Below are positions 8,949-42,550 of a DNA stretch of 43,303 nt, in pieces. The translations under genes and the position numbers were made by a program. The notes beneath the pieces were generated by a model. The model ran no database searches. It saw only the letters and a list, made by a program, of their open reading frames with translations, and was not told the origin of the DNA. Position 1 is the first letter of the stretch. Every line of letters starts with the position of its first letter. This DNA comes from Candidatus Magasanikiibacteriota bacterium (lineage in GTDB: Bacteria > Patescibacteriota > Patescibacteriia > Magasanikbacterales > UBA10146). The stretch lies in NCBI GenBank assembly GCA_016212585.1, contig JACRFU010000062.1:1-43303 (forward strand), in the 5' to 3' direction.

Positions 8949-8960
8949 ATTCGTGTTTAG

Positions 8961-9083
8961 TAGGACTTACGCCTTTGGCCAATTTCTTCGTCAAAGCCTG
9001 CGCTTCTCGCTCGTCGTAGATATACTACGGCTTGCTCCGATGCTCGGCTTTTCCTTGAACTTGTCTCAAAGGCGTAAGTCCTA
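8961..9083 (+). mobile_element. Family B MITE, copy 1 (123 bp) between rpsQ and rplN
   Basis: Perfect 17-bp TIR TAGGACTTACGCCTTTG / CAAAGGCGTAAGTCCTA, flanked by a direct 5-bp repeat TTTAG (8956-8960 and 9084-9088). Confidence 0.9.
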
Positions 9084-9084
9084 T

Positions 9085-9336
9085 TTAGGCTTTTTTAGCA
9101 ATACGCCAGCGCTTATCTTTGGATAACGGACGGCATTCAATAAAAGAAACCTTGTCGCCGGGCGCGTAGACGCCGCTGGTATAATGCACCTTAAATTTTG
9201 CGTGCACGATATAAAACTTTAAATACTTTGGGTGTTTTTTTACCTGTTCAACTTTTACCACAAGCGTTTTAGGCATCTTGGCGGAAGTAACAATGCCGGT
9301 AAAAACTTTATGTTGTACATTTTTTTTCTCTTGCAT
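9085..9336 (-). CDS. rpsQ: 30S ribosomal protein S17
   Basis: 83 aa with GIVTSAKMPKTLVVKVE, KHPKYLK and PLSKDKRW. Confidence 0.95.
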   Translation of the reverse strand: MQEKKNVQHKVFTGIVTSAKMPKTLVVKVEQVKKHPKYLKFYIVHAKFKVHYTSGVYAPGDKVSFIECRPLSKDKRWRIAKKA

Positions 9337-9337
9337 A

Positions 9338-9544
9338 TTATTTAATAACTATGTGCTTCAACAAAGTTAAGAGATGCGCGATGCGTTTGTGTGCGGCTTT
9401 CACCAAATGCACCTGCTTGACTTCTTGCGTGTGCACTTTAAACCGTAACGCGCGCAATGCCTCGCGCTCAGTGGCGAGCATACTCACGAGCTCATCCGAG
9501 TTTTTTGCACGCAATTCCTGTAATTGTATTTTTATTTTACTCAT
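9338..9544 (-). CDS. rpmC: 50S ribosomal protein L29
   Basis: 68 aa with LRAKNSDELVSML..EREALRALRFK. Position lies between rplP and rpsQ. Confidence 0.9.
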   Translation of the reverse strand: MSKIKIQLQELRAKNSDELVSMLATEREALRALRFKVHTQEVKQVHLVKAAHKRIAHLLTLLKHIVIK

Positions 9545-9959
9545 ATAAATCTTTGCTTACAAACGCGACTCTGGTAGGTAATTTATAACCAGCGAGTTTT
9601 ACTGCCTGCACCGCTATTTCTTTTGATATGCCTTCTACTTCAAAAATAATGGTGCCGGGTTTTACAATTGCCACATAGTGGTCAACCGCGCCTTTTCCTC
9701 CACCCATTGAGTTCTCGTTGCCATGCGCCGTGATGGGTTTATCCGGAAAAATACGGATCCAAAACTTGCCGCCTTTTTTTAAAAACTTGGTAATGGTACG
9801 GCGCGCGGCTTCTATCTGACGCGCGGTAATCCATGAATAATCAAGCGCTTTGAGCCCATATGTTCCAAACGCCAATTCAACTTTTGTAGTGGCAACCCCC
9901 GCGTTGCGGCGGCGGCCTTTATGCCACTTGCGATGTTTTACTTTCTTGGGAATCAACAT
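9537..9959 (-). CDS. rplP: 50S ribosomal protein L16
   Basis: True start is MLIPKKVKHRKWHKGRRRN. The upstream part of ORF 9537-10004 reads into family B copy 2. Confidence 0.93.
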   Translation of the reverse strand: MLIPKKVKHRKWHKGRRRNAGVATTKVELAFGTYGLKALDYSWITARQIEAARRTITKFLKKGGKFWIRIFPDKPITAHGNENSMGGGKGAVDHYVAIVKPGTIIFEVEGISKEIAVQAVKLAGYKLPTRVAFVSKDLYE

Positions 9960-9970
9960 ATTATGTGGTA

Positions 9971-10093
9971 TATGACCTACGCATTTGTCCAATTTCTTCG
10001 TCAAAGCCTGCGCTTCTCACTCGTCGTAGGTATACTACGGCTTGCTCCGATGCTCGGCTTTTCCTTGAACTTGTCTCAAATGCGTAGGTCATG
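9971..10093 (+). mobile_element. Family B MITE, copy 2 (123 bp) between rpsC and rplP
   Basis: TIR TATGACCTACGCATTTG / CAAATGCGTAGGTCATG. The interior is nearly identical to copy 1. Flanks are TGGTA / TGATA (4 of 5 match). The rpsC stop codon TGA (10089-10091) lies inside the element terminus. Confidence 0.88.
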
Positions 10094-10742
10094 TGATAAT
10101 CTCTTTTGACGCAAAAATATCTCCGCGATACACCCATACCTTAATGCCAATAATACCGTAAATAGTATGCGCGGTAGTGGAATTAAAATCAATATCAGAG
10201 CGAAGATTCTGCAAAGGAATTTTTCCTTCGGTAATAAACTCGCGGCGCGCGATTTCCGCGCCGTTCAAACGACCTGAAACCGCAATTTTTACTCCCAAAG
10301 CGCCTGCTTTGCGCACGCGCTCCACAGACTGCTTAAGTACGCGGCGGAACGGCACGCGTTTTTCAAGCTCAGTCACGACACCCTGTCCAATGATAGCGGC
10401 GGAAAGCGCCGGATGCGCTACTTCAAGAATATTCACTTTGACATTGGTCTTAACATCAAAAAATTTCTTTTGCAACTTTTTACGCAATTCTTCCGCTCCG
10501 GCGCCTCCGCGGCCAATAATCATGCCGGGTTTTGCCGCGGAAAGACTAATAGTAATATCGTGTGGGGTGCGTTCTATGCCAATCGCATCCACACCAGCGT
10601 CTTTGAACTCTTTCATCAAATGCGCGCGAATCGCCAAATCTTCGCGCAAAAATTTAGCATACCCTTTACGCGCGAACCATTTAGAATCCCATGTATAAAT
10701 ACTGCCGATGCGAAAAATTTTTGGATGTACTTTGTGACTCAT
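10089..10742 (-). CDS. rpsC: 30S ribosomal protein S3
   Basis: 217 aa starting MSHKVHPKIFRIG, with GIERTPHDITISLSAAKPGMIIGRGG (KH domain). Confidence 0.95.
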   Translation of the reverse strand: MSHKVHPKIFRIGSIYTWDSKWFARKGYAKFLREDLAIRAHLMKEFKDAGVDAIGIERTPHDITISLSAAKPGMIIGRGGAGAEELRKKLQKKFFDVKTNVKVNILEVAHPALSAAIIGQGVVTELEKRVPFRRVLKQSVERVRKAGALGVKIAVSGRLNGAEIARREFITEGKIPLQNLRSDIDFNSTTAHTIYGIIGIKVWVYRGDIFASKEIIT

Positions 10743-10750
10743 ACAATTAG

Positions 10751-11152
10751 TTATGATGTATATGTTGCGATTGCCGGCGCATCTTCTGTTTTTTCTTTCA
10801 CTTCTTTTTTGGCCGCGCGCATGATCTCCGTGAGCGTCAACTTAACAGAACAAGTCCGTTTGCGAATCTCATACGCTCGTCCAAACGCGCGCGGTTGGAA
10901 ACGTTTCAAAGTAGGACCTTGTTCCGCGACAATTGACTTAATTTTTAAATTGCCTGCTGATATATGAAAATTATGTTCCGCGTTTGCCACCGCCGATTTC
11001 ACCAATTTTGCAAGCGGTGTTTTATTTTTTTGCCCAGCAAACTGCAAAATCACGAGCGCGTCTTCAACACGCTTCCCGCGGATCTGGTCAATCAAGGGTT
11101 TCATTTTGCGCGTGCTTGTGCGAATTGTTTTGAGCTCTGCGAATACATCCAT
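10751..11152 (-). CDS. rplV: 50S ribosomal protein L22
   Basis: 133 aa in the conserved position, containing SAVANAEHN and AFGRAYEIRKRTCSV. Confidence 0.93.
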   Translation of the reverse strand: MDVFAELKTIRTSTRKMKPLIDQIRGKRVEDALVILQFAGQKNKTPLAKLVKSAVANAEHNFHISAGNLKIKSIVAEQGPTLKRFQPRAFGRAYEIRKRTCSVKLTLTEIMRAAKKEVKEKTEDAPAIATYTS

Positions 11153-11156
11153 AATA

Positions 11157-11489
11157 TTATTTCTTTGTGGGCGCTGGCGTGGCCGAAGCTTTTTTAGCCG
11201 CCTCTGACTGCGCCGTCTCTAAATCTTTTTGCATTTTGCCTCCGTGGCGAACAAACTTGCGCGTCGGAGAAAACTCTCCCAAACGGTGCCCCACCATATT
11301 TTCTACAATCATAACAGGAAGATGCTGTTTGCCGTTATGCACCGCAATCACAAACCCCACCATCTCGGGGGTTACCACACTGGCGCGCGCCCATGTTTTG
11401 ATAGGGGTTTTATCGCCTTGTTTCAGGCGCTTAACCTTTTTCATTAATTTTTCATCTATGTACGGACCTTTTTTTAAACTGCGTGACAT
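11157..11489 (-). CDS. rpsS: 30S ribosomal protein S19
   Basis: Starts [19 protein letters not shown], with [10 protein letters not shown] and [12 protein letters not shown]. Confidence 0.95.
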
Positions 11490-11495
11490 ACAAAA

Positions 11496-12323
11496 TTATT
11501 TACGATGTTGGATTATTAAAAAGTTGCTCCATTTCTTGCGTTTGCGCGTCTTAACCCCCAGCGCAGGCTTACCTTGCGGAGTTTCCGGACGACGCATACC
11601 GATTGGGTTGTGTCCCTCGCCGCCACCGTGCGGATGATCAACAGGATTCATGGCTTTTCCGCGCACTGACGGTCTCCAGCCCATATGGCGTCTGCGTCCC
11701 GCTTTGCCAAGACGGATCAAATTGCGGTCGGGATTGCTCAAAACGCCAATCGTCGCGGCGCATTCTTGGCTCACTTTTCGTAATTCGCCAGAAGGGAGTT
11801 TAAGTGTGGCATACCCCATTTCAACCGCCATCAACTGTGAACTAGTGCCAGCGCCGCGCACAATTTTACCGCCTTGTCCCGCCAATAATTCTATATTATG
11901 AACCATCTGGCCGACCGGAACAAATTTGAGCGGCATACGAGCGCCTGTTTTTACTTCAATGCGATTTTTTGAACTCAACACGGAGTCTCCTGCCGTAATG
12001 CCCTGCGGAGCCAATATATATGACTTCACTTTATCAGCATATTCAATCAATGCGATACGAGCACCTCTGTTGGGATCATATTCAATGGCGTTCACTGTTG
12101 CGGGTATATCATACCGCTGTTGTTTAAAATCCACCAATCTATAAAATGTGCGCGTGCCTCCTCCTCTGTGGCGCACAGTAATGCGGCCGTTGGAACGGCC
12201 GGTGCGCTTCTTGTGCACCATCATAAGCTTTTTCTCCGGTTTGTGTTTGGTGATATCGTCGAACGCATCCACCATAGTGGCGCGGCGTCCGGGAGTTGTT
12301 GGTTTGTATGTCTTAAATGCCAT
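11496..12323 (-). CDS. rplB: 50S ribosomal protein L2
   Basis: True start is MAFKTYKPTTPGRR. The upstream part of ORF 11496-12410 is MITE read-through. Contains RGKAMNPVDHPHGGGEG. Confidence 0.95.
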   Translation of the reverse strand: MAFKTYKPTTPGRRATMVDAFDDITKHKPEKKLMMVHKKRTGRSNGRITVRHRGGGTRTFYRLVDFKQQRYDIPATVNAIEYDPNRGARIALIEYADKVKSYILAPQGITAGDSVLSSKNRIEVKTGARMPLKFVPVGQMVHNIELLAGQGGKIVRGAGTSSQLMAVEMGYATLKLPSGELRKVSQECAATIGVLSNPDRNLIRLGKAGRRRHMGWRPSVRGKAMNPVDHPHGGGEGHNPIGMRRPETPQGKPALGVKTRKRKKWSNFLIIQHRK

Positions 12324-12325
12324 AG

Positions 12326-12487
12326 GGGTCTGTCGCCGAATGCGCTTTTGAAACGAAATGCGCAGATTTCGAGACAAAATTATTGAATAAATTTTGAGGT
12401 TTAATTGCAAATTAAGCTGAAAAATTTTGAAACAATTATGGCCGAACTATGCATATTGCAGTCAAAATGGCATTCGGCGACAGACCC
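12326..12487 (+). mobile_element. Family A MITE, full copy 5 (162 bp) between rplW and rplB
   Basis: GGGTCTGTCGCCGAATGC...GCATTCGGCGACAGACCC. Flanking 5-mers are CATAG (12321-12325, which contains the rplB start codon) and CATAT (12488-12492). Confidence 0.9.
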
Positions 12488-12494
12488 CATATGA

Positions 12495-12956
12495 TTATAC
12501 CGAACTCAAAAGAGTAATATGGTCTCCTTTGCCGACGGTAACCATTGCCTTCTTCCACGCTTTGCGCGTGCCGCTTCTGCGCCCAAACTGTTTTACTTTC
12601 CCGCGCATGCTCACGATGCGCACTTTGATAACCTTTACTTTAAAAACTGATTCAACCGCTTTTTTCACTTCTACTTTATTAGTGTTTTTTGCGACTTCAA
12701 ATACATATTGATTTTGTGTTTGGTGCAAGGTGTTCTTCTCCGTGAGAAGAGGACGCAATAATACGCGATGCGCGCCGCCAGTGGCGCGTGGTTTTTCTTC
12801 AATAGACGGTGTGGAAACAACCACTTCTGTTTCCTTGTTGGATTTTAATGATACAGTTTTTTCTGCAACAGCAACAATCACAGGTGTTTTTTTTTGTTGC
12901 GTTACTTGTTTTTTCTGCTCTTCTTTTTTATTTTTGTACCAATTAAAAATACTCAT
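12495..12956 (-). CDS. rplW: 50S ribosomal protein L23 with a ~55-aa N-terminal extension
   Basis: The C-terminal ~95 aa (LLRPLLTEKNT...FEVAKNTNKVEVKKAVE...KKAMVTV) are canonical L23. The N-terminal part is Lys/Glu/Thr-rich. Confidence 0.9.
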   Translation of the reverse strand: MSIFNWYKNKKEEQKKQVTQQKKTPVIVAVAEKTVSLKSNKETEVVVSTPSIEEKPRATGGAHRVLLRPLLTEKNTLHQTQNQYVFEVAKNTNKVEVKKAVESVFKVKVIKVRIVSMRGKVKQFGRRSGTRKAWKKAMVTVGKGDHITLLSSV

Positions 12957-12959
12957 ATC

Positions 12960-13601
12960 TTACTTTGATTTCACGCCGTAAGTTTTTTCCAATGATTCTA
13001 TGGTTCCCGGCATGGTAACAACATTTGCGTGGTTCAAAAGCGTTATAATATCTATCTGGTCGCGCGCAATAACCTGCACATTGTTAATATTTCGAGCGGA
13101 ACGCGCCACCAATGTATCGGACGCTGGCATAATCACTAAAATTTTACCTTTATGCAAAGGAAGTTTTTTCAAAAATCCCGCAACAAGCTTGGTTTTTGCG
13201 TTTTCCACCGCAAGGCTGTCAACAAGAATCAAACCGTTATTCTGCGCCTTGTCGGACAATACCATACACATGGCAAGCCGCTTCACTTTTTTATTGATTT
13301 TTAATTTGAAATTGCGTTCTGATGTTGGACCAAATGTAATACCGCCGCCGCGCCACAAAGGAGAACGGATAGATCCCGCGCGGGCTCGTCCGGTGCCTTT
13401 TTGCGCCCATGGTTTGCGTCCGCCGCCGCGTACCTCGCCTTTTTTCTTAGTGTCGGCAAGCACCTGACGGCGATTAGCAAACAAAGAACGCACCACCTCC
13501 GCAATCAACGCTTGTTTTGGTTTGATGCCAAAAACTGCCGCAGACAATTCTTTTGTCCCAATCACTTCGCCTTGTTGATTGTAAATCTTTAATGAATTCA
13601 T
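12960..13601 (-). CDS. rplD: 50S ribosomal protein L4
   Basis: 213 aa with GGGRKPWAQKGTGRARAGSIRSPLWRGGG. Confidence 0.95.
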   Translation of the reverse strand: MNSLKIYNQQGEVIGTKELSAAVFGIKPKQALIAEVVRSLFANRRQVLADTKKKGEVRGGGRKPWAQKGTGRARAGSIRSPLWRGGGITFGPTSERNFKLKINKKVKRLAMCMVLSDKAQNNGLILVDSLAVENAKTKLVAGFLKKLPLHKGKILVIMPASDTLVARSARNINNVQVIARDQIDIITLLNHANVVTMPGTIESLEKTYGVKSK

Positions 13602-13610
13602 AGATGCGCA

Positions 13611-14405
13611 TTACACGACGGTTTGTTCTTGAATTTTAGAAACATCTGCTGATATGTTTATTTCCTCTGTAACATCCGATGCTTGAGCTGATACCGTTTC
13701 CCCTACTTTAGACACTTCCTCTGTCAACGCTTCCACAGGCATGGCAGGCGCTGGCTCATGTTTCATTTTGATAACTTTTAATTCTCCGCCAGAACATTTG
13801 ATTAAAATAAGTCCGTTGCGACCGCCCGGAATTGCTCCCTTAATCTGTAAGATGTGCTTCTCCGGATCAATCGCCACGATTGATAAATTTTGCACGGTTA
13901 CCTGTTCATCTCCCATATGACCGCCCATGCGCATTCCTTTGAACACGCGCTGAACGCCGCCCGCTCCAATTGAACCAGGCATGCGCAAGTTATCTTTATG
14001 GCCATGACTTGCAGGACCGCCTCGGAAATGATGGCGTTTTACCACGCCCTGAAATCCACGCCCTTTGGAAGTGCCGGTGACATCTACCTTATCCCCCACG
14101 GTAAACATTTCCACCGTAATCATATCACCGCGTTCAACACCTGCAATTTCTTTTTCACTGACCGGCATCTCGCGAATCATCCGCATAGTGGGCAAATCTT
14201 TTAAATGTCCCAATTGCGGTTTGGCAATATGTTTTGCTTTTCCTTCGTCAAATCCAACCTGAAGAGCGGTTGTGTTGTCGTGCGGCTGTTTCTTGACATG
14301 CGTCACTACGCAAGGAGTTGCCTTGACAAGTGTTACCGGAACAAGCGTGCCGTCTTCGGCAAACACTTGGCTCATCTGAATTTTCTTACCAAAAATGAAT
14401 TTCAT
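13611..14405 (-). CDS. rplC: 50S ribosomal protein L3 with an acidic C-terminal extension
   Basis: Start placed at MKFIFGKKIQMSQVF, the canonical L3 N-terminus. Contains GTSKGRGFQGVVKRHHF. About 55 extra C-terminal residues. Confidence 0.9.
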   Translation of the reverse strand: MKFIFGKKIQMSQVFAEDGTLVPVTLVKATPCVVTHVKKQPHDNTTALQVGFDEGKAKHIAKPQLGHLKDLPTMRMIREMPVSEKEIAGVERGDMITVEMFTVGDKVDVTGTSKGRGFQGVVKRHHFRGGPASHGHKDNLRMPGSIGAGGVQRVFKGMRMGGHMGDEQVTVQNLSIVAIDPEKHILQIKGAIPGGRNGLILIKCSGGELKVIKMKHEPAPAMPVEALTEEVSKVGETVSAQASDVTEEINISADVSKIQEQTVV

Positions 14406-15012: not shown

Positions 15013-15083
15013 GCGAAAATCTTTTTATGAAAAGCGCGCCACGCTAGATTGCAACAAATCTTCACGGGCACGCTTTCACATAG

Positions 15084-17189: not shown

Positions 17190-17470
17190 ACAATCTTGTT
17201 ATTTTCTAAAACATTTTTTTGAAAAGCCGCCGCGGCCGTATTGAAATTGACCACATCTATTTTAAAAGGAAGTGTTGATGTTTCAAATACTTCCTTTAAT
17301 TTTCTTATATCTCCTTCAGTTATGTTTCCTTTCACTCCCACATCAACATCGGAAAATTTGTCTTGCCGCACCGCGGAACCAAATAAAAAAATCTGTATTT
17401 TTTTTCCTTTGGCAAAGGTGGAAAGGTCTTTTTTAATCCGTTCAAAATACTTTTTTTTATTCTGAATCAT
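17174..17470 (-). CDS. Minimal nucleotidyltransferase (MNT / MntA-like antitoxin)
   Basis: Start placed at MIQNKKKYF. Contains the polbeta-NTase motif FLFGSAVRQDKFSDVDVGV. The upstream part of ORF 17174-17566 is repeat read-through. Confidence 0.75.
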   Translation of the reverse strand: MIQNKKKYFERIKKDLSTFAKGKKIQIFLFGSAVRQDKFSDVDVGVKGNITEGDIRKLKEVFETSTLPFKIDVVNFNTAAAAFQKNVLENNKIVWIKR

Positions 17471-17483
17471 ATGCACATATAAT

Positions 17484-17537
17484 GGGTTTGTCGCCGAATG
17501 CCATTTTGACTGCAAAAGCGCATTCAGCGACAGACCC
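17484..17537 (-). mobile_element. Family A mini-derivative (54 bp, both termini, interior deleted), copy 6
   Basis: GGGTTTGTCGCCGAATGCCATTTTGACTGCAAAAGCGCATTCAGCGACAGACCC, flanked by a perfect direct repeat ATAAT (17479-17483 and 17538-17542). Confidence 0.85.
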
Positions 17538-17593
17538 ATAATAACAAAAAAATGCTTGTAATGCAAGAAAAAAATAATGCGTGAAAAACTTGA

Positions 17594-25223: not shown

Positions 25224-25560
25224 GATTTTTGCCTCTCCTGCTGGTTGAATTGTCAAACATCGCGTTGTGCGCGCAAGACTCTCTTGCGGTTGTGAATTAC
25301 GAAACTGCGTTGAAGCAATGGCTTTGAGGGGACTGCGCAACCGCGGGTCGCGTGCGAGCTAGAGCAAAAATCCTTCAAGGATTTTATGCGTACCCCGAAA
25401 ATCTATTGCTTAAAAAAGCTGTTTCGTAATTCACAGCTTACGAAATCGCAATATAGAGTATCATAACATAAAAAAACTATTTGTCCACACCCGCACCCCT
25501 TGCGCTCTAAACGCCGCTATCATAAAATGGGTTGGGCTTGTCTATTAACCTATAACCCTT

Positions 25561-27374: not shown

Positions 27375-28697
27375 ATGAGACAAATCTACGCTTTCCTGCG
27401 GACTCCGGATATCGGACTGCAGATCGCAGGTGCGCCGCATCAAACGCTCGCTGCGTTGCCGACGACAACACAAAAAGTGTTTGAACGGCTGTATAGAGCC
27501 GCGCTGTACTTCAAAAGCAACAAAGAAGCGCCGCGCGCGCCGGTCATCACAGAACTTCTCCAAACATATTTGGACGGACACGATGCCGCGTCCTACTACG
27601 CGCAGCTTCCTGCCGCCATTGTTGAAATCCATGAGTATTTCGCGGATTTTGTGCGGTTCTACCTGCCACGCGATCTCCGCCAGCTCTTCACCTCTGAAGG
27701 TATTATCACGAACATCGATGATCCTGCAGATCTCGTGGTGAGTATTTTCTTTCCTCATGAAATCCATGGAAATGGGAGAACGGAACACATCTCTAGACTT
27801 GCAGAGATCCGTTCATGGATTGCCTTGCGCACATGGTTTTGCGCCGTACGATGGCTTACGGAGAGAAGCATACTCCAACGCGGACGCGATCACATGCAAA
27901 GAATCACTGCGGCGTTTGAAGATGATGTCTTTGAGGCATGCGAGAGAGACAGGATGCGCGTCCTCAACATCACTTACGATCCGCATAGATTCACATTCCG
28001 TGGAATCGCGCATACGCCAAATGGCAAAACAACCATCGCCATGCCGCTCTCCATCCGCCGTATTGACATCAAAGGGTCGCCCGTAGAAGTGATCTTTGAT
28101 AGTCGCGTCAAATCACCCCACTCAGTTTGGAGAAAAATCAGCGCGTCGCGCAGGTTGGCTGATCACCTCGCGGAAATGCTCATTTTCTTCACTGAAGATG
28201 ATTTTAAAAAAACTCTGTCAATGCTGAATCGTGTCGTACTCCATGACGAAACTGCCAAAGTCAAAAACGGCACGCGAGTGGACAGCACACCCAATCTTAA
28301 CGCGTTCACCTATGCTGGAGTGTTCTGGAGCGGGACAATCCATTTAGGAGGCGTCGCCTCAGAGCTTGAATGCTCATCTATAGAGCGATACTTCAACAGC
28401 ATGGCGGGGCTCAACTTGTTCAACCACCTCGCCTATGAAGTACGGCGGCTCATCCGGCAAAGTGCAGACGGGTCTCCCTCTCTCTGGGAGATGATTTTCC
28501 CCGCAGCACTCTATACGCCGCTCACGCTTGACCTCAAAATCAAGATGATCGTGCGTCAGCTTGCGTCAGTTGCACAAGATTTCTATCCGCATGATCAACG
28601 AGCGCGCGTAGAAATTGATCGCGTGAGCAAACTGCTTCTCGCGCATCCTAACGGGGTTGATGATCCGCTCTCGGTAAGAGGTCTCATAAGGATCTAA
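27375..28697 (+). CDS. Hypothetical protein, 440 aa, no recognisable domain
   Basis: Long uninterrupted ORF with AAAGGGTGAG upstream of the ATG and its own terminator. Composition is visibly GC-richer than the surrounding genes. I found no motif I can assign. Confidence 0.7.
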   Translation: MRQIYAFLRTPDIGLQIAGAPHQTLAALPTTTQKVFERLYRAALYFKSNKEAPRAPVITELLQTYLDGHDAASYYAQLPAAIVEIHEYFADFVRFYLPRDLRQLFTSEGIITNIDDPADLVVSIFFPHEIHGNGRTEHISRLAEIRSWIALRTWFCAVRWLTERSILQRGRDHMQRITAAFEDDVFEACERDRMRVLNITYDPHRFTFRGIAHTPNGKTTIAMPLSIRRIDIKGSPVEVIFDSRVKSPHSVWRKISASRRLADHLAEMLIFFTEDDFKKTLSMLNRVVLHDETAKVKNGTRVDSTPNLNAFTYAGVFWSGTIHLGGVASELECSSIERYFNSMAGLNLFNHLAYEVRRLIRQSADGSPSLWEMIFPAALYTPLTLDLKIKMIVRQLASVAQDFYPHDQRARVEIDRVSKLLLAHPNGVDDPLSVRGLIRI

Positions 28698-28806: not shown

Positions 28807-28988
28807 TATGGACATCACATTTAGAAATCGCACTAAGCATTCTTTAATATGGATGATGTGCGAGCACGTTGGAACGAAAAAATAAGCGAGCTGTATTACC
28901 TATACAGCGAGCTTATTTTTTTGTGAAACGAGAAGCACATCGCCATAGTAATGGATTATGAGTGCGATTTCTAAATGTGATGTCCATA
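28807..28988. mobile_element. Family C palindromic element (182 bp) overlapping the 3' end of ndk
   Basis: Perfect 28-bp inverted repeat TATGGACATCACATTTAGAAATCGCACT (28807-28834 and 28961-28988). The arms continue as an imperfect palindrome to a central hairpin. Confidence 0.75.
28875..28922. terminator. Bidirectional terminator-like hairpin at the centre of the family C palindrome
   Basis: AATAAGCGAGCTGTAT (28881-28896) pairs with ATACAGCGAGCTTATT (28902-28917), leaving a 2-nt internal mismatch. An A run lies on one side and a T run on the other. Confidence 0.45.
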
Positions 28989-32124: not shown

Positions 32125-32204
32125 GAGTCTGCCGCCGAATGCTATGCCCGTAACAAAATGTACGTATGCGCATTGCAGTCAAAATTGCATTCGGTGGCAG
32201 ATCC
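32125..32204 (+). mobile_element. Family A internally deleted derivative (80 bp), copy 7
   Basis: GAGTCTGCCGCCGAATGCTATGCCCGTAACAAAATG joined to TACGTATGCGCATTGCAGTCAAAATTGCATTCGGTGGCAGATCC. Flanked by a perfect direct repeat ATTAT (32120-32124 and 32205-32209). Confidence 0.8.
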
Positions 32205-32221
32205 ATTATATCAGACTCGTG

Positions 32222-32964: not shown

Positions 32965-33053
32965 ACAAAATGTGGTTGAATGATACACTGAGACGAAAAA
33001 TTTTGAAACAACTATGGCCGAACTATGTCAAAATGGCATTCGACGACAGACAC
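32965..33053 (+). repeat. Family A partial copy 8 (right half, left terminus missing)
   Basis: ..GAAAAATTTTGAAACAACTATGGCCGAACTATG-TCAAAATGGCATTCGACGACAGACAC matches the right half of copy 5. Confidence 0.75.
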
Positions 33054-33149
33054 AATACAAGACCATATCACATTTCAAACACAAACGCAACATCGGATAG
33101 GATATGTGTCAACGGGAAATAGAAATGTCCTATAGACATCCTGCCTTAA

Positions 33150-35287: not shown

Positions 35288-36749
35288 CTATTTCAACTTT
35301 TTTACCCATCCATGGTTTGCGTTCACCTCAACTATATCGCCATCACGCAACACTTCCGTCGCAATCTTGGTACCGATAATGCTTGGAATGCCAAGCTCAC
35401 GGGAAACAATCGCCGCGTGAGAAGTAATGCCTCCTTCACTAGTTACTATTGCCGCGGCTTTTTTCATTGCAGGGGACTGTCGCCGAATGCGCTTTTGTAA
35501 CGAAATTTCCAGATTTCTGGACACAATTGTTGAATACATTTTGAGGTTTAACAGGAGTTAAGCCGAAAAATGTTGAAACAATTTTGGATGAAATAGGGGA
35601 ATTGCAGTCAAAATGGCATTCGGCGACAGTCCCTGCAGTGATATAATCCGGCCGCGTCATGACCGCTACCAAAATATCACCCTGTTTAACTTTGTCGGCT
35701 TCCGTGGCCGAATTAAGTATGCGCACAGGGCCAATTGCTCTGCCGGTTGAAGCGGATAACCCCCTAAAATCATCAACTTGGTCATGTGGTTTTTGCCCCA
35801 AAACCATTTTTTTCAATTCTTCCAAGCACGCGCTTGGTACCACCTCAAACGCTTCTCCGACCACAATAAATCCGGATTTTTTTCTACCTTGCAATTCTTT
35901 TCGCGACGGTTCTCTTTTTGACATAATATCTTTAATTTCTACCGGATAGGCAAATTTCAACTCATCCAATGTATAATCCGTGCGCCGGACAACTTCTTTC
36001 AAAATAGTACAACCCATATCAATGTTAAAATAGGTTGCTTTTTTACACTTATCTTGCCACCATGTAAAATCTTCCGAGATCTGTATGAGCGCGCGCAGAA
36101 GCGCGGACAATTTTACTTTTTTAAACAGCGCTTGTTTTTTTATTCTATTCAAGCGCGGCGTTTCATACAAATGTTTCAATTCCTTCTTTAAATCTTTGCC
36201 GCTTTTTTTCCACGCTCTGATTTCTTCTTGAAAATGCTTCACACTCAACACCTGCGCTGTGATATAATTATTCTTGCTCCAATACGAGCGCTTTTGATAG
36301 GCGACTAAATTATCCTTGGAAACGCCCACTATAATTTTAAGCAGTTCTATTTCCGCCTGATTGCTAAATGATTGATGCACGGGCGCAGTGGCAATGCTAA
36401 AAATTTCAGTAAATTGTGATTCTTTAAATCTCGCGGAATTTTTTGAGCCATATAATTCCTTGCGCAGTAGCGCGCTGATAATCTCGTCCGTGCCCAAAGC
36501 AAAATGATCAATCAAAATTGTTGAAGTGGCGCAATTGATGAATAACGTATAGGTGGTATTCCACACTTCAAGAAGTTGCGCATCGGAACATTTTTTTAAA
36601 TCAATCGCAGGGAATGTTTTCCAAAAATATCGTTCATATATCTGTTCATCTTTTTTCCATTTCTTGAGCAATTTTGTTGAAAGCCGAGGGTCTTTTTTGG
36701 CAAGCTCAACAAACCGTTTTGCCGCACACCGTATATCACCCATTTCCAA
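35288..36749 (-). pseudogene. PEP-utilising-enzyme-like gene (paralog of 38734-40167) split by family A copy 9
   Basis: The upstream part ends ..ILVAVMTRPDYITA and the downstream part starts [28 protein letters not shown]. The intact paralog has ..[42 protein letters not shown], so the 166-nt insertion (161-bp element plus 5-bp duplication) sits exactly between A and M. Confidence 0.85.
35473..35633 (+). mobile_element. Family A MITE, full copy 9 (161 bp, subfamily A2) inside a coding sequence
   Basis: GGGACTGTCGCCGAATGC...GCATTCGGCGACAGTCCC, flanked by a perfect 5-bp direct repeat TGCAG (35468-35472 and 35634-35638). Confidence 0.92.
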
Positions 36750-36768
36750 ATACCAATCTGCAAATATA

Positions 36769-37506: not shown

Positions 37507-37518
37507 AATTTCTATTAA

Positions 37519-38601
37519 TTACAAAAATTTTTTCTTGCCTTTTTGCTCCAAACCCGCCACAATTTTTTTTACATCCTGCGCGCGGCCTTTGGGGCAAATC
37601 AACAGAGCGTCTTTAGTGTCTACCACAATCATATTATCCAGCCCGATGGTGGCGATAATTTTTCGCTCACTGCCATATACCAAACAATTATGCGTATCAT
37701 GCAATTCAACCTGCCCGCGCGCGATATTGCCGTCCGGCGTCATGGCATTTAAAAGCTGATCATAAAGAGCATCCCACGCGCCAATGTCGCTCCACCCAAA
37801 ATCACCCTTAATCACCAACACATCAGACGGATCCAGTTTTTCCGCCAACAAATAGTCAATGGAAATCTTTGGCAGTTGCGCAAAAAGTTTTTTAATTGAA
37901 CGAGCAGAACCCTCCTTAATAGCTTTGCGAAGCGCTTCAATTACCGGTTTAAGCTCCGGCGCGCATCGCGCCACGGCGTCAACAAATTTGCGAGGCGTCC
38001 ACATATAATAGTTCGCGTGCCACAGATACTCCCCGCTTTTAATGTATCGCGTTGCTGTTTCCGCGTCGGGTTTTTCCGTGTGTCCCAAAAATTTATACAC
38101 TTCTATGCCATTCACGCTTTTCCAGCGCTTACCGATGTGCGTGTAACCGAGCGCGGTACTGGGGAAGGACGCCTGCACTCCAATATCAACAAGCTTGCCT
38201 GTTTCCCGCACCAACTCGCCACCCGCTGAGAGCGTGGCAATAAAACGCTTTACAGAATCAATGCTGTGGTCTGAAGGGATAAAGACAAACGGCTCATTAG
38301 GTGCGCGTTCAAGCAAATGGAGCGCGGAAAAAATCATTGCAGGCGCCGTGTCGCGTTTTTCCGGTTCAGTAATAACATGGTCTGGCGGCAATGCGGGCAG
38401 AAGTCCGCGCAAAACCTTTGCTTGCAAACTATTGGTGGAAAAAAATATATGTTCCGGCTTGAACCCCGAAAGCAACCGCTCATATGTTTCCACAATCATG
38501 GGCTTGGTGGACACAATAGGGAAATACTGTTTTGGTTTTTTATGCCGCCCCATGGGCCAAAGCCGAGTGCCTCCACCGCCGGACAAAATTATCGCGTTCA
38601 T
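37519..38601 (-). CDS. Mannose-1-phosphate guanylyltransferase-like nucleotidyltransferase
   Basis: 360 aa starting MNAIILSGGGGTRLWPMGRHKKPKQY (sugar-nucleotidyltransferase G-loop), with typical ManC/CpsB N-domain length. Confidence 0.8.
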   Translation of the reverse strand: MNAIILSGGGGTRLWPMGRHKKPKQYFPIVSTKPMIVETYERLLSGFKPEHIFFSTNSLQAKVLRGLLPALPPDHVITEPEKRDTAPAMIFSALHLLERAPNEPFVFIPSDHSIDSVKRFIATLSAGGELVRETGKLVDIGVQASFPSTALGYTHIGKRWKSVNGIEVYKFLGHTEKPDAETATRYIKSGEYLWHANYYMWTPRKFVDAVARCAPELKPVIEALRKAIKEGSARSIKKLFAQLPKISIDYLLAEKLDPSDVLVIKGDFGWSDIGAWDALYDQLLNAMTPDGNIARGQVELHDTHNCLVYGSERKIIATIGLDNMIVVDTKDALLICPKGRAQDVKKIVAGLEQKGKKKFL

Positions 38602-38733
38602 AGTTTAATTTTTAAAATTATTGCAAGACTTTATTTTATTATTTTATTCCTATTTTCTGCGTTCATACACTTGGCTTCAAATGATTCTTGTGTTTTGATT
38701 TTTTTATCATACTAATATTTACTCCGAAAATAT

Positions 38734-40167
38734 TCAACAAACTTTTTGAGCAATCCCCTGCGCGGGGCTTACTTCCACCAAATCATCATCTTTGAATAAC
38801 GTAGTAGCAATCTTGGTACCCACAAGGCACGGAATACCGAGCTCACGGCTCACTATAGCCGCATGGGATGTTAAACCACCCGTATCAGTAATGACGGCGC
38901 AGGCTTTTTTCATGGCAAAAATATATTCCGGACTCGTCATCGGCGCGACTAAAATTTCTCCGTCTCGGAACATTTCTACCTTCAAGGGATCCAAAAGAAT
39001 ACGGATTTTCCCGCGCACGGTGCCATGCGTACCCTTACTCGCAACAATTCCTCTCACTTCTTTCACACCGATTGCCGCTTCCTCCATACTACTATAGGTA
39101 TTCCAAACATACTCGGTTTTTTCAGCGTTGAGCTCTTTACACTCATGGAAAAATTGTACCCCGAACCCCTTGGCTCGCTCCATTAATTTTGCATGTAAAT
39201 CCTTGCCTTTGATAATCTCCGTTATTTCTTGATGCCATAAATTATGTAGCTCATCAAATGCATACTCGTATCGTCGCCCAACCTCTTGAACTAATGCATC
39301 AGTATAATGCAAAATAATAAAAATATATTTCTTGCGCTCATCTTGCCAACCAATACCATAGCTAATAGCTTCTGCAATATCCATCAGTTCTGCGGGTACA
39401 TTAAACTGTTTCTGGATTGCTAATTTGCGCGCTTTTGTTTCTTCTATTTTTTTCTTAATCTCAATCACCATCTCCGGCTTCACTTCTTTTTTTCGCTCCA
39501 CAAAAAATTCAAGCGGCAAGACGTGCGTCCCGGCATAACTATTTTTAAGCCAAAAAAACTGCTGCTGATGGTTTGCCAAATCCGTTGTTTGGTTCAAAGC
39601 GATTTCTTCTTCCTGATAAAACGACAAACGAGTTGGAGCAGTCAAAATTTCAAGAACTTCAGTACTATTCCGCTCATCCGTAATATATTTTTTTATCCGT
39701 TCAGTGAGATAATGAGTTGAACCGTAATTGGCAAGTTCAGGAACCGAACCGGTAATCCAAAATTTGATATAATACTTTAATAAATCCGTCCACAAAATCA
39801 ACAGTTCCGCGTCTGTTATTTCTGCAAGTTTAGTCTTGCCGATTTTTTTTTCAATATCCTGAATTCTTTTAACATCGTCAAGCCATTCCCTATATATCTT
39901 TTCCCGCGATACCCTCGGCAACAGGTATTTCAAAAATATTCTTTCACCGGTCGCGTTGACATCCTGGGCGTTATTAATCCAAAAACTGCGGCCATTTTTA
40001 AACAACCATAGTGTTTCCGGCCAATTCTCGCCATACCTTTCACGAAAATGTTTATAATGCACCTCTACAAAGGTAGAACTATATAAAAATTTCCCGGGGA
40101 TGGGACCCCACCGAAAGATATTGCTTTGTGGATCAAATGGTAATTTAATAATGGAGTTTTTTACCAT
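38734..40167 (-). CDS. PEP-utilising-enzyme mobile-domain protein (C-terminal phospho-His swivel domain, N-terminal region of unknown function)
   Basis: 477 aa. The C-terminus [48 protein letters not shown] is the PF00391-type domain. I saw no ATP-grasp GGKxxN motif in the N-terminal 380 aa. Confidence 0.75.
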   Translation of the reverse strand: MVKNSIIKLPFDPQSNIFRWGPIPGKFLYSSTFVEVHYKHFRERYGENWPETLWLFKNGRSFWINNAQDVNATGERIFLKYLLPRVSREKIYREWLDDVKRIQDIEKKIGKTKLAEITDAELLILWTDLLKYYIKFWITGSVPELANYGSTHYLTERIKKYITDERNSTEVLEILTAPTRLSFYQEEEIALNQTTDLANHQQQFFWLKNSYAGTHVLPLEFFVERKKEVKPEMVIEIKKKIEETKARKLAIQKQFNVPAELMDIAEAISYGIGWQDERKKYIFIILHYTDALVQEVGRRYEYAFDELHNLWHQEITEIIKGKDLHAKLMERAKGFGVQFFHECKELNAEKTEYVWNTYSSMEEAAIGVKEVRGIVASKGTHGTVRGKIRILLDPLKVEMFRDGEILVAPMTSPEYIFAMKKACAVITDTGGLTSHAAIVSRELGIPCLVGTKIATTLFKDDDLVEVSPAQGIAQKVC

Positions 40168-40275
40168 AGCCTTTAACTTGCTCTACATATTCAACGAGCT
40201 CCGAACGAGTTACATTTTTTCCTTTAAGATGATGATAAATTGGATTATAGGTATAGGCCATATTCCAAAACAAGT

Positions 40276-40815
40276 TTAAAAAACAGATTTAAAAAATCTA
40301 ACAATAATCCATGTGCCTAGCCAGCCAAGCGCCAACCCAACCGCCACATCGGAGAAATAATGCACACCCGCGGCCACGCGGCCCAAGGCCACAAGTATCG
40401 CCAGCACCCACGCAAACCTCCCCCATTTTTTGTCATATATATATACAACGGCCGCAAGCGCCGCCGCCACCGTGGCATGGCCGGAAGGAAACGAATGGCT
40501 TGTTATGGGCTCCGCGATCAATTCCTTAATCGCATGAAACACCACAAACGGCCGTGCGCGAAACCATAATTTCCCTATCACCCATTTGGCGGCATACGTG
40601 GCAAACACGCTTGCGATAAGATTGAGAAGCGCTTCCACCCGCGCCATTTTTGATCCCGTGCGATACATAATCACCAACACCGCCACCAGCGCCAAAACAA
40701 AAATCAAATAATCAGCCGCGCCAACCGCAAGCGGGACACTCCACCCGTGCGTGGCAAAAAAATGATTAAACCCAAGTGTTAATTGGTGGTCCCATCCGCG
40801 TAAAAATTCTAACAT
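40276..40815 (-). CDS. PAP2-family phosphatase (undecaprenyl-diphosphatase/BcrC-like)
   Basis: 179 aa membrane protein with KxxxxxxRP (KLWFRARP), PSGH (SFPSGHA) and SRxxxxxHxxxD-like (GRVAAGVHYFSDV) motifs. Confidence 0.85.
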   Translation of the reverse strand: MLEFLRGWDHQLTLGFNHFFATHGWSVPLAVGAADYLIFVLALVAVLVIMYRTGSKMARVEALLNLIASVFATYAAKWVIGKLWFRARPFVVFHAIKELIAEPITSHSFPSGHATVAAALAAVVYIYDKKWGRFAWVLAILVALGRVAAGVHYFSDVAVGLALGWLGTWIIVRFFKSVF

Positions 40816-40824
40816 ATGTGTTTA

Positions 40825-40947
40825 TCGGACCTACGCATTTGAGACAAGTTCGAGGAAAAGCCGAGCATCGGAGCAAGCCGTAATATACCTACGACGAGCG
40901 AGAAGCGCAGGCTTTGACGAAGAAATTGGCCAAATACGTAGGTCCTA
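40825..40947 (-). mobile_element. Family B MITE, copy 3 (123 bp, inverted relative to copies 1-2) between gpmI and the PAP2 gene
   Basis: GGACCTACGCATTTG...CAAATACGTAGGTCC. The interior is the reverse complement of copies 1 and 2. TTTA lies on both flanks (40821-40824 and 40948-40951); the right one overlaps the gpmI stop codon. Confidence 0.88.
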
Positions 40948-40948
40948 T

Positions 40949-42550
40949 TTAAATAAGTGACTGACCGGTCATTTCCGGCGGCTGTTCAAGCCCCATAATT
41001 TTTAAAATGGTCGGCGCGACATCCGCGAGCATCCCCACCGGCGCGGACAAACTCAAATCCCCTCCCATGACGTCGCCACCGGGGCCAGTCTGCCCTTCCC
41101 ATTGTTTGCCGATAATAATAAGCGGCACCGGATAGGTGCTATGCTCTTTATCAATCCCCCCTGTTTTCAAATTGATCATTTCTTCCACATTGCCGTGATC
41201 CGCGGTAAACACTGCCACATATCCTTTGGCAAGCGCCAAATCCGTAATCTGTCCGAGCGCTTTGTCTATTACCTCCAGGCTCTTTACTGCCGCGGGCAGG
41301 TTTCCCGTGTGCCCCACCATATCCGCGTTGGCAAAATTAATCGCAACAAGTCCATACGCGCCCTTTTCAATCGCTTTCAATGCTTCTTTGGCAATTTCCG
41401 GCGCGGACATTTCCGGCTTTTGATCATAACCGGACACATGCGGCGAGGGAATAATCATTCGCTCCTCCCCGGGGAACGGTTCTTCCACGGTGCCATTCAA
41501 AAAAAATGTAATGTGCGCGTATTTTTCCGTTTCCGCCACATGAAATTGTGATAATCCAGCGTTTGCAACAACTTCCGCCAAACAATTGATAATCACATCC
41601 GGCGGGAACACCACCTCAACAGGCAAACTTTTTTCAAACTCCGCCATGGTAACAAACAATAAATTTTTGTATTCACGCGCCGTGAACTTATCAAAACTGG
41701 GAAGCGCGAACGCTTTGGTCAATTCGCGCGCGCGGTCCGGACGAAAATTAAAAAATACCACCGCGTCGTTGTCTTCCACCGTTGCCACCGGCTTGCCGCC
41801 ATCGGTAATGGTTACGGGAGCAAACTGCTCATCATATACTTCTTTTGCATACGAAGCTTTGATAGCTTCCGCGGGGTCTTTTGCTTGTTCTCCCTTGCCT
41901 TCCGCAATGGCGCGATATGTTTTTTCTATACGGTCCCATCGATTATCTCTGTCCAAAGCATAAAAACGACCCGCCAAACTGGCAACGCGGCCAACTCCGT
42001 ATTCTTTGATTTTTGCCTGCAACCTCTCCAAAGACGCGCCGCCTCCGTTAAACAATGCGTCGCGGCCGTCCAAAAACATGTGGATGTAGACTTCTTTAAT
42101 TTTTTGTTCCGCGGCAAATTTTAAAAGCGCGTACAAATGCTCCTCTGCAGAGTGTACGTTGCCGTTGCTCACCATGCCCATCAAATGCAAACGAGATTTA
42201 TTTTTTTTGACATGCGCGGCGGCCTTGAGAAGTGTTTCGTTTTTATCAAACGCGCCGCTGGAAATAGACTGATTGATGCGCAACAATGTTTGATAATATA
42301 CGCGTCCTGCGCCAATGTTCAAATGTCCTACCTCGGAATTGCCCATCTGCCCCCACTCCAACCCCACCTCATTACCGGAAGCAATGATAGTCATGGCAGG
42401 GTAAGTTTTGAGCAATCGGTTAAACACCGGCAATTTGGCCTGTGTAATGGCGTTGCCGTCCGAGGGCGGCGCAACGCCCCAGCCGTCGCAAATAATGAGA
42501 ACAACAGGCTGAATTTGCGCTTTATTTGGCTGATTTGTATCTGTTGGCAT
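40949..42550 (-). CDS. gpmI: 2,3-bisphosphoglycerate-independent phosphoglycerate mutase
   Basis: 533 aa with ICDGWG, SEVGHLNIGAGR and ADHGN motifs. Length is typical of iPGM. Confidence 0.93.
   Translation of the reverse strand: MPTDTNQPNKAQIQPVVLIICDGWGVAPPSDGNAITQAKLPVFNRLLKTYPAMTIIASGNEVGLEWGQMGNSEVGHLNIGAGRVYYQTLLRINQSISSGAFDKNETLLKAAAHVKKNKSRLHLMGMVSNGNVHSAEEHLYALLKFAAEQKIKEVYIHMFLDGRDALFNGGGASLERLQAKIKEYGVGRVASLAGRFYALDRDNRWDRIEKTYRAIAEGKGEQAKDPAEAIKASYAKEVYDEQFAPVTITDGGKPVATVEDNDAVVFFNFRPDRARELTKAFALPSFDKFTAREYKNLLFVTMAEFEKSLPVEVVFPPDVIINCLAEVVANAGLSQFHVAETEKYAHITFFLNGTVEEPFPGEERMIIPSPHVSGYDQKPEMSAPEIAKEALKAIEKGAYGLVAINFANADMVGHTGNLPAAVKSLEVIDKALGQITDLALAKGYVAVFTADHGNVEEMINLKTGGIDKEHSTYPVPLIIIGKQWEGQTGPGGDVMGGDLSLSAPVGMLADVAPTILKIMGLEQPPEMTGQSLI

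What the first reader, a model, noticed from the sequence alone, without database searches (positions are those of the whole stretch)
8956..40951. Family B: 123-bp MITE whose terminal stems differ between copies by compensatory changes while the interior is almost invariant
Copies lie at 8961-9083, 9971-10093 and 40825-40947 (inverted). Copy 1 has a perfect 17-bp TIR TAGGACTTACGCCTTTG and a perfect TTTAG duplication that includes the rpsQ stop codon. The reconstructed original junction is GCC TAA acacgaat ATG. Copy 2 differs from copy 1 at three TIR positions (G/T, T/C, C/A). Each change is mirrored in the other arm (GTCCTA/GTCATG, GTAAGT/GTAGGT, AAGGC/AATGC), whereas the ~90-nt interiors differ at only about 3 positions. 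In copy 3 the single arm mismatch would be a G-U wobble in the minus-strand (mRNA-sense) transcript. Paired substitutions suggest selection, or arm-to-arm gene conversion, that maintains a hairpin rather than only a protein-binding site.
Basis: seen in the sequence. Interest (0 to 1): 0.65.

Follow-up and report, generated by a model that had tools for sequence, protein, structure and literature searches.

The report
Small hairpin transposon between operon genes
This is a 123-bp non-coding mobile element (a MITE) that has landed three times between genes of an uncultured groundwater bacterium. Its two end sequences change in matched pairs, which is real but already known from other bacterial repeat families.

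Summary
Three 123-bp copies lie at the stated coordinates, each a single long fold-back with a 17-bp terminal inverted repeat. Each sits exactly between two co-directional genes. The nearest relatives (75-92% identical in the flanking protein used to find them) have empty sites at all three junctions, so these are insertions.

Only three more copies could be retrieved, two in a Ca. Azambacteria MAG and one in a JGI metagenome contig. Across the six copies the terminal stem is 99% paired. Three of its 17 pairs carry changes on both sides: position 3 is GC or TA, position 7 is TA or CG with a T.G intermediate, and position 13 is CG, AT or GC. Only 1 of 500 shuffles reaches this covariation score.

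The pairing rule is confined to the terminal stem. Interior substitutions are one-sided and break pairs. The three G.T states give G.U in the mRNA sense in only one case. The "invariant interior" is largely a recency effect, because the distant copy has a diverged interior and conserved ends.

A hairpin selected in the mRNA is therefore not supported. Maintenance of arm complementarity at the element or DNA level fits better. Six copies cannot separate selection from arm-to-arm conversion. Comparable behaviour is published for bcr1 and REPINs, so this is a new member of a known kind.

The parts
8961..9083 (+). Family B copy 1 (123 bp), lying between the rpsQ stop and the rplN start. The mRNA carries the element's minus strand.
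8956..8960 (.). Left copy of the 5-bp target-site duplication TTTAG of copy 1
9084..9088 (.). Right copy of the TTTAG duplication. It contains the rpsQ stop codon (9085-9087, TAA on the minus strand).
8961..8977 (+). Copy 1 left arm, TAGGACTTACGCCTTTG
9067..9083 (-). Copy 1 right arm, a perfect complement of the left arm
9971..10093 (+). Family B copy 2, lying between the rpsC stop and the rplP start. The arms are TATGACCTACGCATTTG / CAAATGCGTAGGTCATG.
9966..9970 (.). Left flanking repeat of copy 2, TGGTA. It matches the right repeat at 4 of 5 positions.
10094..10098 (.). Right flanking repeat of copy 2, TGATA
10089..10091 (-). The rpsC stop codon TGA, which lies inside the right arm of copy 2. 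It exists only because of the variant A at TIR position 3; the canonical C would read GGA.
   Evidence: and reading of the sequence
40825..40947 (-). Family B copy 3, lying between the gpmI stop and the start of a PAP2-family gene. The mRNA carries the element's plus strand.
40821..40824 (.). Flanking repeat of copy 3, TTTA (4 bp)
40948..40951 (.). Second TTTA flanking repeat of copy 3. It overlaps the gpmI stop codon (40949-40951).

Best explanation
Family B is a non-autonomous DNA transposon (MITE) of a Patescibacteria (CPR) lineage. The window's ribosomal protein S3 is 91% identical to that of Ca. Magasanikbacteria GW2011_GWA2_45_39.

An unidentified transposase acting in trans recognises the 17-bp ends and makes a short staggered cut, usually 5 bp, at A/T-rich sites such as TTTAG or TTAAA. 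These sites coincide with stop codons and tiny intercistronic spacers. Only insertions that leave both neighbouring genes intact survive. The duplication re-creates the stop or start codon, or the element's own TAG/TGA end supplies the stop.

The whole element is a fold-back. The two terminal arms are kept complementary by a process acting on the element itself. This could be selection among copies for a fold-back or matched-end form needed for mobilisation, or templated arm-to-arm correction within the palindrome. Host selection on an mRNA hairpin is less likely.

Shown here: the copies, TIRs, duplications, empty sites and paired substitutions. Inferred: the transposase, the cut geometry, and the cause of the pairing.
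For: Anatomy. Three window copies plus L002, L004 and L005. The 17-bp arms match with 0-2 mismatches, and six arm hits are found against 0.41 expected by chance. Both strands of every copy fold as one long hairpin, z = -5.9 to -9.2. The same holds with DNA parameters.

Duplications. They are perfect in copy 1 (TTTAG), L002 (TCACA) and L005 (ATGGTTT), 4 of 5 in copy 2, and 4 bp in copy 3.

Empty sites. Relatives have S3-L16 gaps of 1-5 nt and S17-L14 gaps of 22-27 nt. At the gpmI-PAP2 junction, L015 reads TAA-ATAT-ATG, its left flank differs from the window at 1 of about 30 nt, and its right flank is closely similar. nhmmer finds no Family B hit in those loci.

No function of its own. There is no protein homologue of either open frame. 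There is no Rfam family. There is no consistent promoter or terminator.

Paired changes. The terminal stem is 99% paired, with 3 pairs and 5 cells changed on both sides. Only 1 of 500 shuffles reaches the covariation score, and slid controls give 0.

Element level rather than mRNA level. Interior pairs show 0 double changes and several breaks. Wobble states do not follow the mRNA strand. A second, unrelated hairpin MITE family in the same genomes shows the same excess of paired changes: 11 pairs and 19 cells, reached by 0-1 of 500 shuffles.
Against: No autonomous element with these ends was found. There is no solitary arm in the window or in any fetched locus, so the transposase is hypothetical.

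Duplication length is not constant (4, 5 and 7 bp), and L004 has no recognisable duplication.

Only six copies were available. Three of them were retrieved through exact interior 20-mers.

All three G.T states lie on the same element strand. This could hint at a strand-specific fold, but it is 3 of 3, p about 0.125.

One paired change, position 3 in copy 2, has a host-level reason on one arm because it creates the rpsC stop codon. Host selection therefore contributes to at least some end variation.
Confidence: 0.55

Rival explanations
1. Host-selected mRNA hairpin. The insertion is co-transcribed, and the perfect terminal stem is kept because it loops the 123 nt out of the message. This would hold the upstream stop and the downstream start close together for translational coupling, or define a processing or stability site. 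Copies that lose the stem would be deleterious and be lost.
For: All six copies lie between co-directional genes, at or within a few nucleotides of a stop codon. The ancestral spacers were only 1-27 nt, and genes overlapped in L005, so coupling is plausible. The RNA folds reach -46 to -56 kcal/mol. In copy 3 the arm mismatch is G.U in the mRNA sense.
Against: In copy 2 and probably L002 the G.T state becomes C.A in the mRNA sense. Interior pairs break without compensation. The element sits in both orientations. There are no transcript data.
Confidence: 0.2
2. Protein-binding symmetry only. Both ends are bound by the same transposase domain. The variants at positions 3, 7 and 13 mark sub-lineages mobilised by transposases of slightly different specificity, so both ends track the protein and no hairpin is involved.
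For: The paired changes are confined to the 17-bp TIR, the expected binding site, and do not extend to the rest of the fold-back.
Against: It would require several transposase variants for copies whose interiors differ by only 2-4 of 90 nt. Three different states at position 13 and a T.G intermediate at position 7 within so young a family are hard to tie to protein co-evolution. Family A shows paired changes far from its ends.
Confidence: 0.15
3. Sampling or relatedness artefact. With six related sequences, a few inherited double differences mimic covariation.
For: The shuffle control ignores relatedness. The tool's own description warns that related sequences can exceed shuffles without any structure.
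Against: At least four independent double events are needed: position 3 once, position 7 once, and position 13 twice. All give Watson-Crick pairs, against a chance of about 2e-4 for the copy 1 / copy 2 pattern alone.
Confidence: 0.05
4. A structured non-coding RNA gene or cis-regulatory RNA rather than a mobile element.
For: A conserved interior with a covarying closing stem is the classical signature of a functional RNA.
Against: There are target-site duplications, empty sites in relatives, both orientations, and unrelated flanking genes. There is no Rfam match. The interior is not conserved in L005 and folds differently there.
Confidence: 0.03

Closest known systems
bcr1 repeats of the Bacillus cereus group
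   Same: As summarised in Delihas 2011 (PMC3184786), bcr1 is a short non-coding interspersed repeat of about 155 bp flanked by 5-bp direct repeats. Its distribution is not conserved between related strains and it is transcribed. Compensatory base-pair changes maintain a double-stranded structure.
   Different: The host phylum differs. I did not compare the sequences. bcr1 folds as a cruciform-like structure rather than one simple fold-back. Transcription of Family B is inferred only from its position inside operons.
REPINs (REP doublets mobilised by RAYT transposases)
   Same: REPINs are long hairpin-forming miniature mobile DNA. [quoted passage not shown]
   Different: In REPINs the conserved 16-mers are at the ends and the compensated changes are in the spacer. 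Family B shows the reverse. From my own knowledge, untested here, REPINs are thought to move as single strands via an HUH/RAYT enzyme without a target duplication. Family B has 4-7-bp duplications typical of DDE transposition.
MITEs inserted inside operons without disrupting them (Chunjie of Geobacter; also ERIC/IRU and Correia/NEMIS elements)
   Same: These are small TIR elements sitting between cistrons, co-transcribed and folding as hairpins. Chunjie is cited in PMC3184786. The ERIC and Correia behaviour is from my own knowledge.
   Different: The sequences are presumably unrelated, though I made no sequence comparison. Correia-type elements duplicate TA only. Family B carries TA as part of its TIR and duplicates a further 4-7 bp.

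Membership tests
Bacterial MITE (non-autonomous TIR transposon) | Short (well under 500 bp) with no coding capacity | tested here: met
   The element is 123-124 bp. One frame on each strand is open, but neither has a homologue in 5.8 billion clusters or 1.84 billion representatives. The only hits were tandem-repeat artefacts.
Bacterial MITE (non-autonomous TIR transposon) | Terminal inverted repeats | tested here: met
   The arms are 17 bp and perfect in copy 1. Six arm hits were found against 0.41 expected by chance. They are 99% paired over six copies.
Bacterial MITE (non-autonomous TIR transposon) | Target-site duplication of fixed length | tested here: inconclusive
   The duplication is a perfect 5 bp in copy 1 and L002, a perfect 7 bp in L005, 4 of 5 in copy 2, 4 bp in copy 3, and absent in L004. 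Duplications are clearly present, but their length is not uniform.
Bacterial MITE (non-autonomous TIR transposon) | Several dispersed copies at unrelated loci | tested here: met
   There are three copies in the window, two on JACRAK010000032.1 and one on Ga0209824_10028368. The flanking genes are unrelated.
Bacterial MITE (non-autonomous TIR transposon) | Presence/absence polymorphism (empty sites in relatives) | tested here: met
   The orthologous S3-L16, S17-L14 and gpmI-PAP2 junctions in relatives lack the element.
Bacterial MITE (non-autonomous TIR transposon) | A cognate autonomous IS carrying the same ends and a transposase | tested here: inconclusive
   No solitary arm occurs in the window or in any fetched locus. 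The plus-strand ORFs checked are IMPDH and TGT, not transposases.
IS630/Tc1-mariner-type MITE (e.g. Correia, RUP) | Duplication of the dinucleotide TA only | tested here: not met
   TA is present at both ends, but perfect direct repeats of 5-7 bp lie outside it in three copies.
REP / REPIN-RAYT system | Insertion without target duplication, plus an associated RAYT gene | tested here: not met
   Duplications are present. A RAYT gene was not specifically searched for.
Tn3-derived miniature elements (5-bp duplication, about 38-bp ends beginning GGGG; from my own knowledge) | Tn3-type terminal sequence | tested here: not met
   Family B ends begin TAGGAC and are 17 bp long. Only the 5-bp duplication is shared.
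Curated structured RNA family (Rfam 15) | Match to a covariance model | tested here: not met
   There is no match at the gathering threshold in the window. No match at E<=1 overlaps Family B in 8380-10150.
bcr1 of the Bacillus cereus group | Sequence homology to bcr1 | not tested
   No bcr1 sequence was available here. The resemblance is in behaviour only.

The most novel reading that the evidence does not exclude
The perfect terminal stem could be a host-tolerated 'loop-out' device. By folding in the polycistronic mRNA it would bring the upstream stop codon and the downstream start codon back together. Termination-reinitiation coupling would then survive a 128-nt insertion inside essential ribosomal-protein operons. 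On this reading, copies persist only while the arms stay complementary. That would explain why two unrelated hairpin MITE families both show paired changes, and how six such insertions are tolerated in one S10-spc operon.
Probability: 0.1. Interest if true: 0.6.

Novelty: new member of a known kind. Interest (0 to 1): 0.3.

Why it matters
This documents active miniature transposons in a streamlined candidate-phyla-radiation genome. A full-text search combining the phrases "miniature inverted-repeat transposable" and "Candidate Phyla Radiation" returned one paper, whose title and abstract concern diversity-generating retroelements.

It shows how such elements survive inside essential, tightly packed operons. 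They land on stop-codon-like A/T-rich sites. They regenerate stops and starts through the duplication or through their own TAG/TGA ends.

The matched end substitutions add one more case to the bcr1/REPIN-type observation that fold-back repeats keep their arms complementary. On their own they do not open a new question.

There is also a practical point. These repeats break short-read assemblies inside ribosomal-protein operons. L006 ends inside two copies.

Tried and rejected
1. Collecting more copies.
- An exact 20-mer scan of GTDB genomes gave 2 real and 2 chance hits.
- A scan of JGI metagenomes gave 1 hit.
- Three scans of IMG/VR gave none, including a two-arm pattern that tolerates any interior.

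2. Finding copies through spurious ORF calls.
- Searching the plus-frame peptide of the element against 5.8 billion clusters gave nothing.
- Searching the minus-frame ORF against 1.84 billion representatives gave only two eukaryote-like tandem-repeat proteins, which I rejected as artefacts.

3. Looking up the window's S17 returned only a 978-bp Logan contig that ends inside the repeats.

4. Rfam at both thresholds gave nothing for Family B. Family A matched plant miRNA-precursor models far below their gathering scores, which reflects a generic long hairpin only.

5. Promoter and terminator scans found no site shared by the copies.

6. A TA-only duplication (mariner-like) was rejected because of the longer perfect direct repeats.

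7. A uniform 7-bp duplication with ends 2 nt shorter gives 6 of 7 matches in copy 1, copy 2 and L002. This is no better than the 5-bp reading, so it was not adopted.

8. I looked for a transposase in the plus-strand ORFs of the window. They are IMPDH, TGT or have no Pfam hit.

9. tblastx between the JACRAK loci and the window found only the shared repeats. Host relatedness, and so vertical versus horizontal spread, could not be judged.
Full report
**What is there**

The window carries a ribosomal-protein (S10-spc) operon and other genes, nearly all on the minus strand. Three copies of a 123-bp sequence lie at 8961-9083 (+), 9971-10093 (+) and 40825-40947 (-).
- Copy 1 sits between the rpsQ stop and the rplN start.
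- Copy 2 sits between the rpsC stop and the rplP start.
- Copy 3 sits between the gpmI stop and the start of a PAP2-family gene.

Every copy folds on either strand into one long imperfect hairpin closed by a perfect or near-perfect 17-bp stem. RNA z-scores are -5.9 to -9.2, and the same holds with DNA parameters. The arm motif occurs six times in the window against 0.41 expected, and only as these three pairs. An independent Logan assembly from SRR12113407 equals window 9041-10018 exactly and stops inside copies 1 and 2, so the junctions are real.

These claims are all correct:
- the perfect TIR of copy 1;
- the TTTAG duplication containing the rpsQ stop;
- the reconstructed junction GCC TAA acacgaat ATG;
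- the three mirrored differences between copies 1 and 2, at positions 3, 7 and 13;
- the three interior differences.

Copy 3 has two arm irregularities rather than one. T.G at position 12 is G.U in the minus-strand sense. Position 2 is an A.G mismatch.

**It is an insertion**

The closest S3 proteins (87-92% identity) include Ca. Magasanikbacteria GW2011_GWA2_45_39. Their operons have S3-L16 gaps of 1-5 nt and S17-L14 gaps of 22-27 nt, with no element.

For copy 3, the Logan contig L015 reads ...TCACTTATTTAA-ATAT-ATG.... Its left flank differs from the window at 1 of about 30 nt and its right flank is closely similar. L013 and L014 are also empty. A profile search finds no Family B sequence in any of these loci.

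**More copies**

Public scans with exact interior 20-mers gave only three further copies:
- L002:6373-6495 and L004:4767-4889, both on JACRAK010000032.1, a Ca. Azambacteria MAG;
- L005:1368-1491, on a JGI metagenome contig.

The viral scans and the two searches for spurious ORF calls found nothing. The family is therefore rare in the public data that were reachable. All statistics below rest on six sequences.

**Flanks**

Direct repeats flanking the element:

| Copy | Left / right repeat | Match |
|---|---|---|
| Copy 1 | TTTAG / TTTAG | perfect, 5 bp |
| L002 | TCACA / TCACA | perfect, 5 bp |
| L005 | ATGGTTT / ATGGTTT | perfect, 7 bp |
| Copy 2 | TGGTA / TGATA | 4 of 5 |
| Copy 3 | TTTA / TTTA | 4 bp |
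| L004 | none recognisable | - |

The terminal TA belongs to the inverted repeat and is not a mariner-type TA duplication.

The insertions respect the neighbouring genes in instructive ways.
- In copies 1 and 3 the upstream stop codon lies in the duplication.
- In L005 the element's first three bases, TAG, now terminate a pilN-like ORF. The duplication AAACCAT rebuilds the ATG of the next gene. The pre-insertion genes overlapped by 17 nt.
- In copy 2 the rpsC stop TGA (10089-10091) lies inside the arm. It exists only because position 3 carries the variant base. The canonical base would read GGA and extend S3 by about 20 codons. S3 is 217 aa in the window and in the close relatives whose S3-L16 junctions were read.

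So one of the three "compensatory" pairs has a coding reason on one arm, and the other arm has followed it.

**Covariation**

In the 17-bp stem, 101 of 102 cells form standard pairs. Three pairs have changes on both sides:
- position 3 is GC x5 and TA x1;
- position 7 is CG x3, TA x2 and TG x1;
- position 13 is AT x4, CG x1 and GC x1.

This requires at least four independent double events. Only 1 of 500 column shuffles reaches the observed covariation score or the number of doubly changed cells. Registers slid by 1-3 columns give none.

The 27 interior pairs of the same fold-back behave differently. They show no double change and several one-sided breaks: copy 2 at 18/106 and 49/76, and L005 at 36/89, 43/83, 45/81, 54/71 and 60/66. 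The L005 interior folds differently altogether. What is maintained is the terminal stem, not the hairpin as a whole.

**RNA or DNA?**

The three one-sided transitions in the stem are all T.G on the element's plus strand (copy 2 position 1, copy 3 position 12, L002 position 7). Relative to the flanking genes, only copy 3 gives G.U in the mRNA. Copy 2 and probably L002 give C.A. Three of three on one element strand is p about 0.125 and cannot be interpreted.

The two strands of Family B fold about equally well. No shared promoter, terminator or Rfam family is present. I find no positive evidence for selection on the transcript.

**Fast ends, frozen interior?**

| Comparison | Variable TIR columns | Variable interior columns | p |
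|---|---|---|---|
| Copies 1 and 2 | 7 of 34 | 3 of 90 | 0.004 |
| Five close copies | 9 of 34 | 7 of 90 | 0.013 |
| All six copies | 9 of 34 | 15 of 90 | 0.31 |

Copy 1 and L005 differ at 2 of 34 end positions but 12 of 90 interior positions, which is the usual MITE pattern. My extra copies were also retrieved through exact interior words, which favours conserved interiors. The contrast is therefore a feature of one young subfamily, partly created by counting each paired change twice.

**A useful comparison**

The window holds a second, unrelated hairpin MITE, Family A. It is about 165 bp with ends GGGTCTGTCGCCGAATGC. Full copies are near 2452, 3427, 8404, 12317 and 35464, with fragments elsewhere. 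The JACRAK MAG shares it at 92-94% identity.

Eight full copies show 11 pairs and 19 cells changed on both sides, against 6.3 and 7.9 in shuffles (0-1 of 500). These are spread along the whole hairpin. Matched arm changes are thus a general property of fold-back repeats in these genomes, not a peculiarity of Family B.

**Mechanism**

The best reading is that Family B is a trans-mobilised MITE that inserts at A/T-rich sites coinciding with stop codons. It is retained only where the neighbouring genes stay intact. Its arms are kept complementary by something acting on the element itself. That could be selection among copies for a fold-back or matched-end form needed for mobilisation, or templated correction between the arms of a palindrome.

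The rivals are:
- a host-selected mRNA stem;
- co-variation with transposase specificity;
- a sampling artefact;
- a structured RNA gene.

Six copies cannot distinguish selection from conversion.

**Comparison with known systems**

- bcr1 of the Bacillus cereus group is about 155 bp, has 5-bp direct repeats, is transcribed, and shows compensatory changes (PMC3184786).
- MITEs inside intact operons, such as Chunjie, are also known (cited in PMC3184786).

Family B meets the MITE criteria, except that no autonomous partner was found and the duplication length varies. It fails the tests for TA-duplicating, REP/RAYT-type and Tn3-type elements.

**Verdict**

This is a new member of a known kind, of modest interest.

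Noticed in passing
window 2452-2632, 3427-3597, 8404-8584, 12317-12496, 35464-35642 (full copies); 61-144, 17475-17548, 32158-32210, 32971-33058 (partial); L002:6705-6882, L004:2231-2412, L004:4232-4414: A second hairpin MITE family (Family A, about 165 bp, ends GGGTCTGTCGCCGAATGC). Eight full copies show 11 pairs with changes on both sides, reached by 0-1 of 500 shuffles. Perfect 5-bp duplications flank the 35464 copy (TGCAG) and the L002 copy (TAAAA). From memory, the ends resemble Tn3-family ends (GGGGTCTG...); this was not tested.
   Followed up: partly
Family A copies, alignment A3: There is a strong strand asymmetry. The element's plus strand folds 7-21 kcal/mol better as RNA than its minus strand in 7 of 8 copies, because of many G.U pairs. 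All five full window copies lie plus-strand while the genes are on the minus strand, so the mRNA carries the weaker-folding strand. This may reflect selection against the strongly folding orientation in transcripts, or an antisense transcript.
   Followed up: partly
window about 2450-12500: At least six MITE insertions lie at intercistronic junctions of one region: Family A near 2452, 3427, 8404 and 12317, and Family B at 8961 and 9971. By the ORF layout and synteny with the relatives' loci this region is the S10-spc ribosomal-protein operon and adjacent genes. The orthologous operons of the closest relatives (L007-L012) have none. This is an unusual load for such a compact, essential operon.
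   Followed up: partly
window 10089-10091 (rpsC stop inside copy 2): The variant base at TIR position 3 creates the TGA that ends S3 at its conserved length of 217 aa. The canonical end would cause read-through of about 20 codons. The other arm carries the matching change.
   Followed up: yes
L005:1368-1498: The element's terminal TAG terminates a pilN-like ORF. A 7-bp duplication, AAACCAT, rebuilds the ATG of the next gene. Before the insertion the two genes overlapped by 17 nt.
   Followed up: yes
window 17470-17552: An 83-nt perfect-stem hairpin made essentially of two Family A ends with a short loop (-35.5 kcal/mol). It looks like an internally deleted Family A derivative.
   Followed up: no
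window 28807-28852 / 28943-28988, next to ORF 27375-28697 (+): A 46-nt inverted repeat (87% complementary, 90 nt apart) lies just downstream of a 440-aa plus-strand ORF that has no Pfam hit. The surrounding region is otherwise minus-strand.
   Followed up: no
window 25289-25438; L002:33-173 and L002:6220-6358: A third sequence of about 140 nt is shared at 72-75% between the window and the JACRAK contig. In L002 it occurs as an inverted pair around a 1239-aa Cys-rich repeat protein gene. It could be another repeat family or a conserved 5' region.
   Followed up: no
window 35358-35471 and 38804-38917: A 114-nt direct repeat pair at 70% identity (D8 of the repeat scan). It was not examined.
   Followed up: no
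L006 (Logan SRR12113407), equal to window 9041-10018: A short-read assembly of the source sample breaks exactly inside the two Family B copies. This illustrates how these repeats fragment ribosomal-protein operons in metagenome assemblies.
   Followed up: yes
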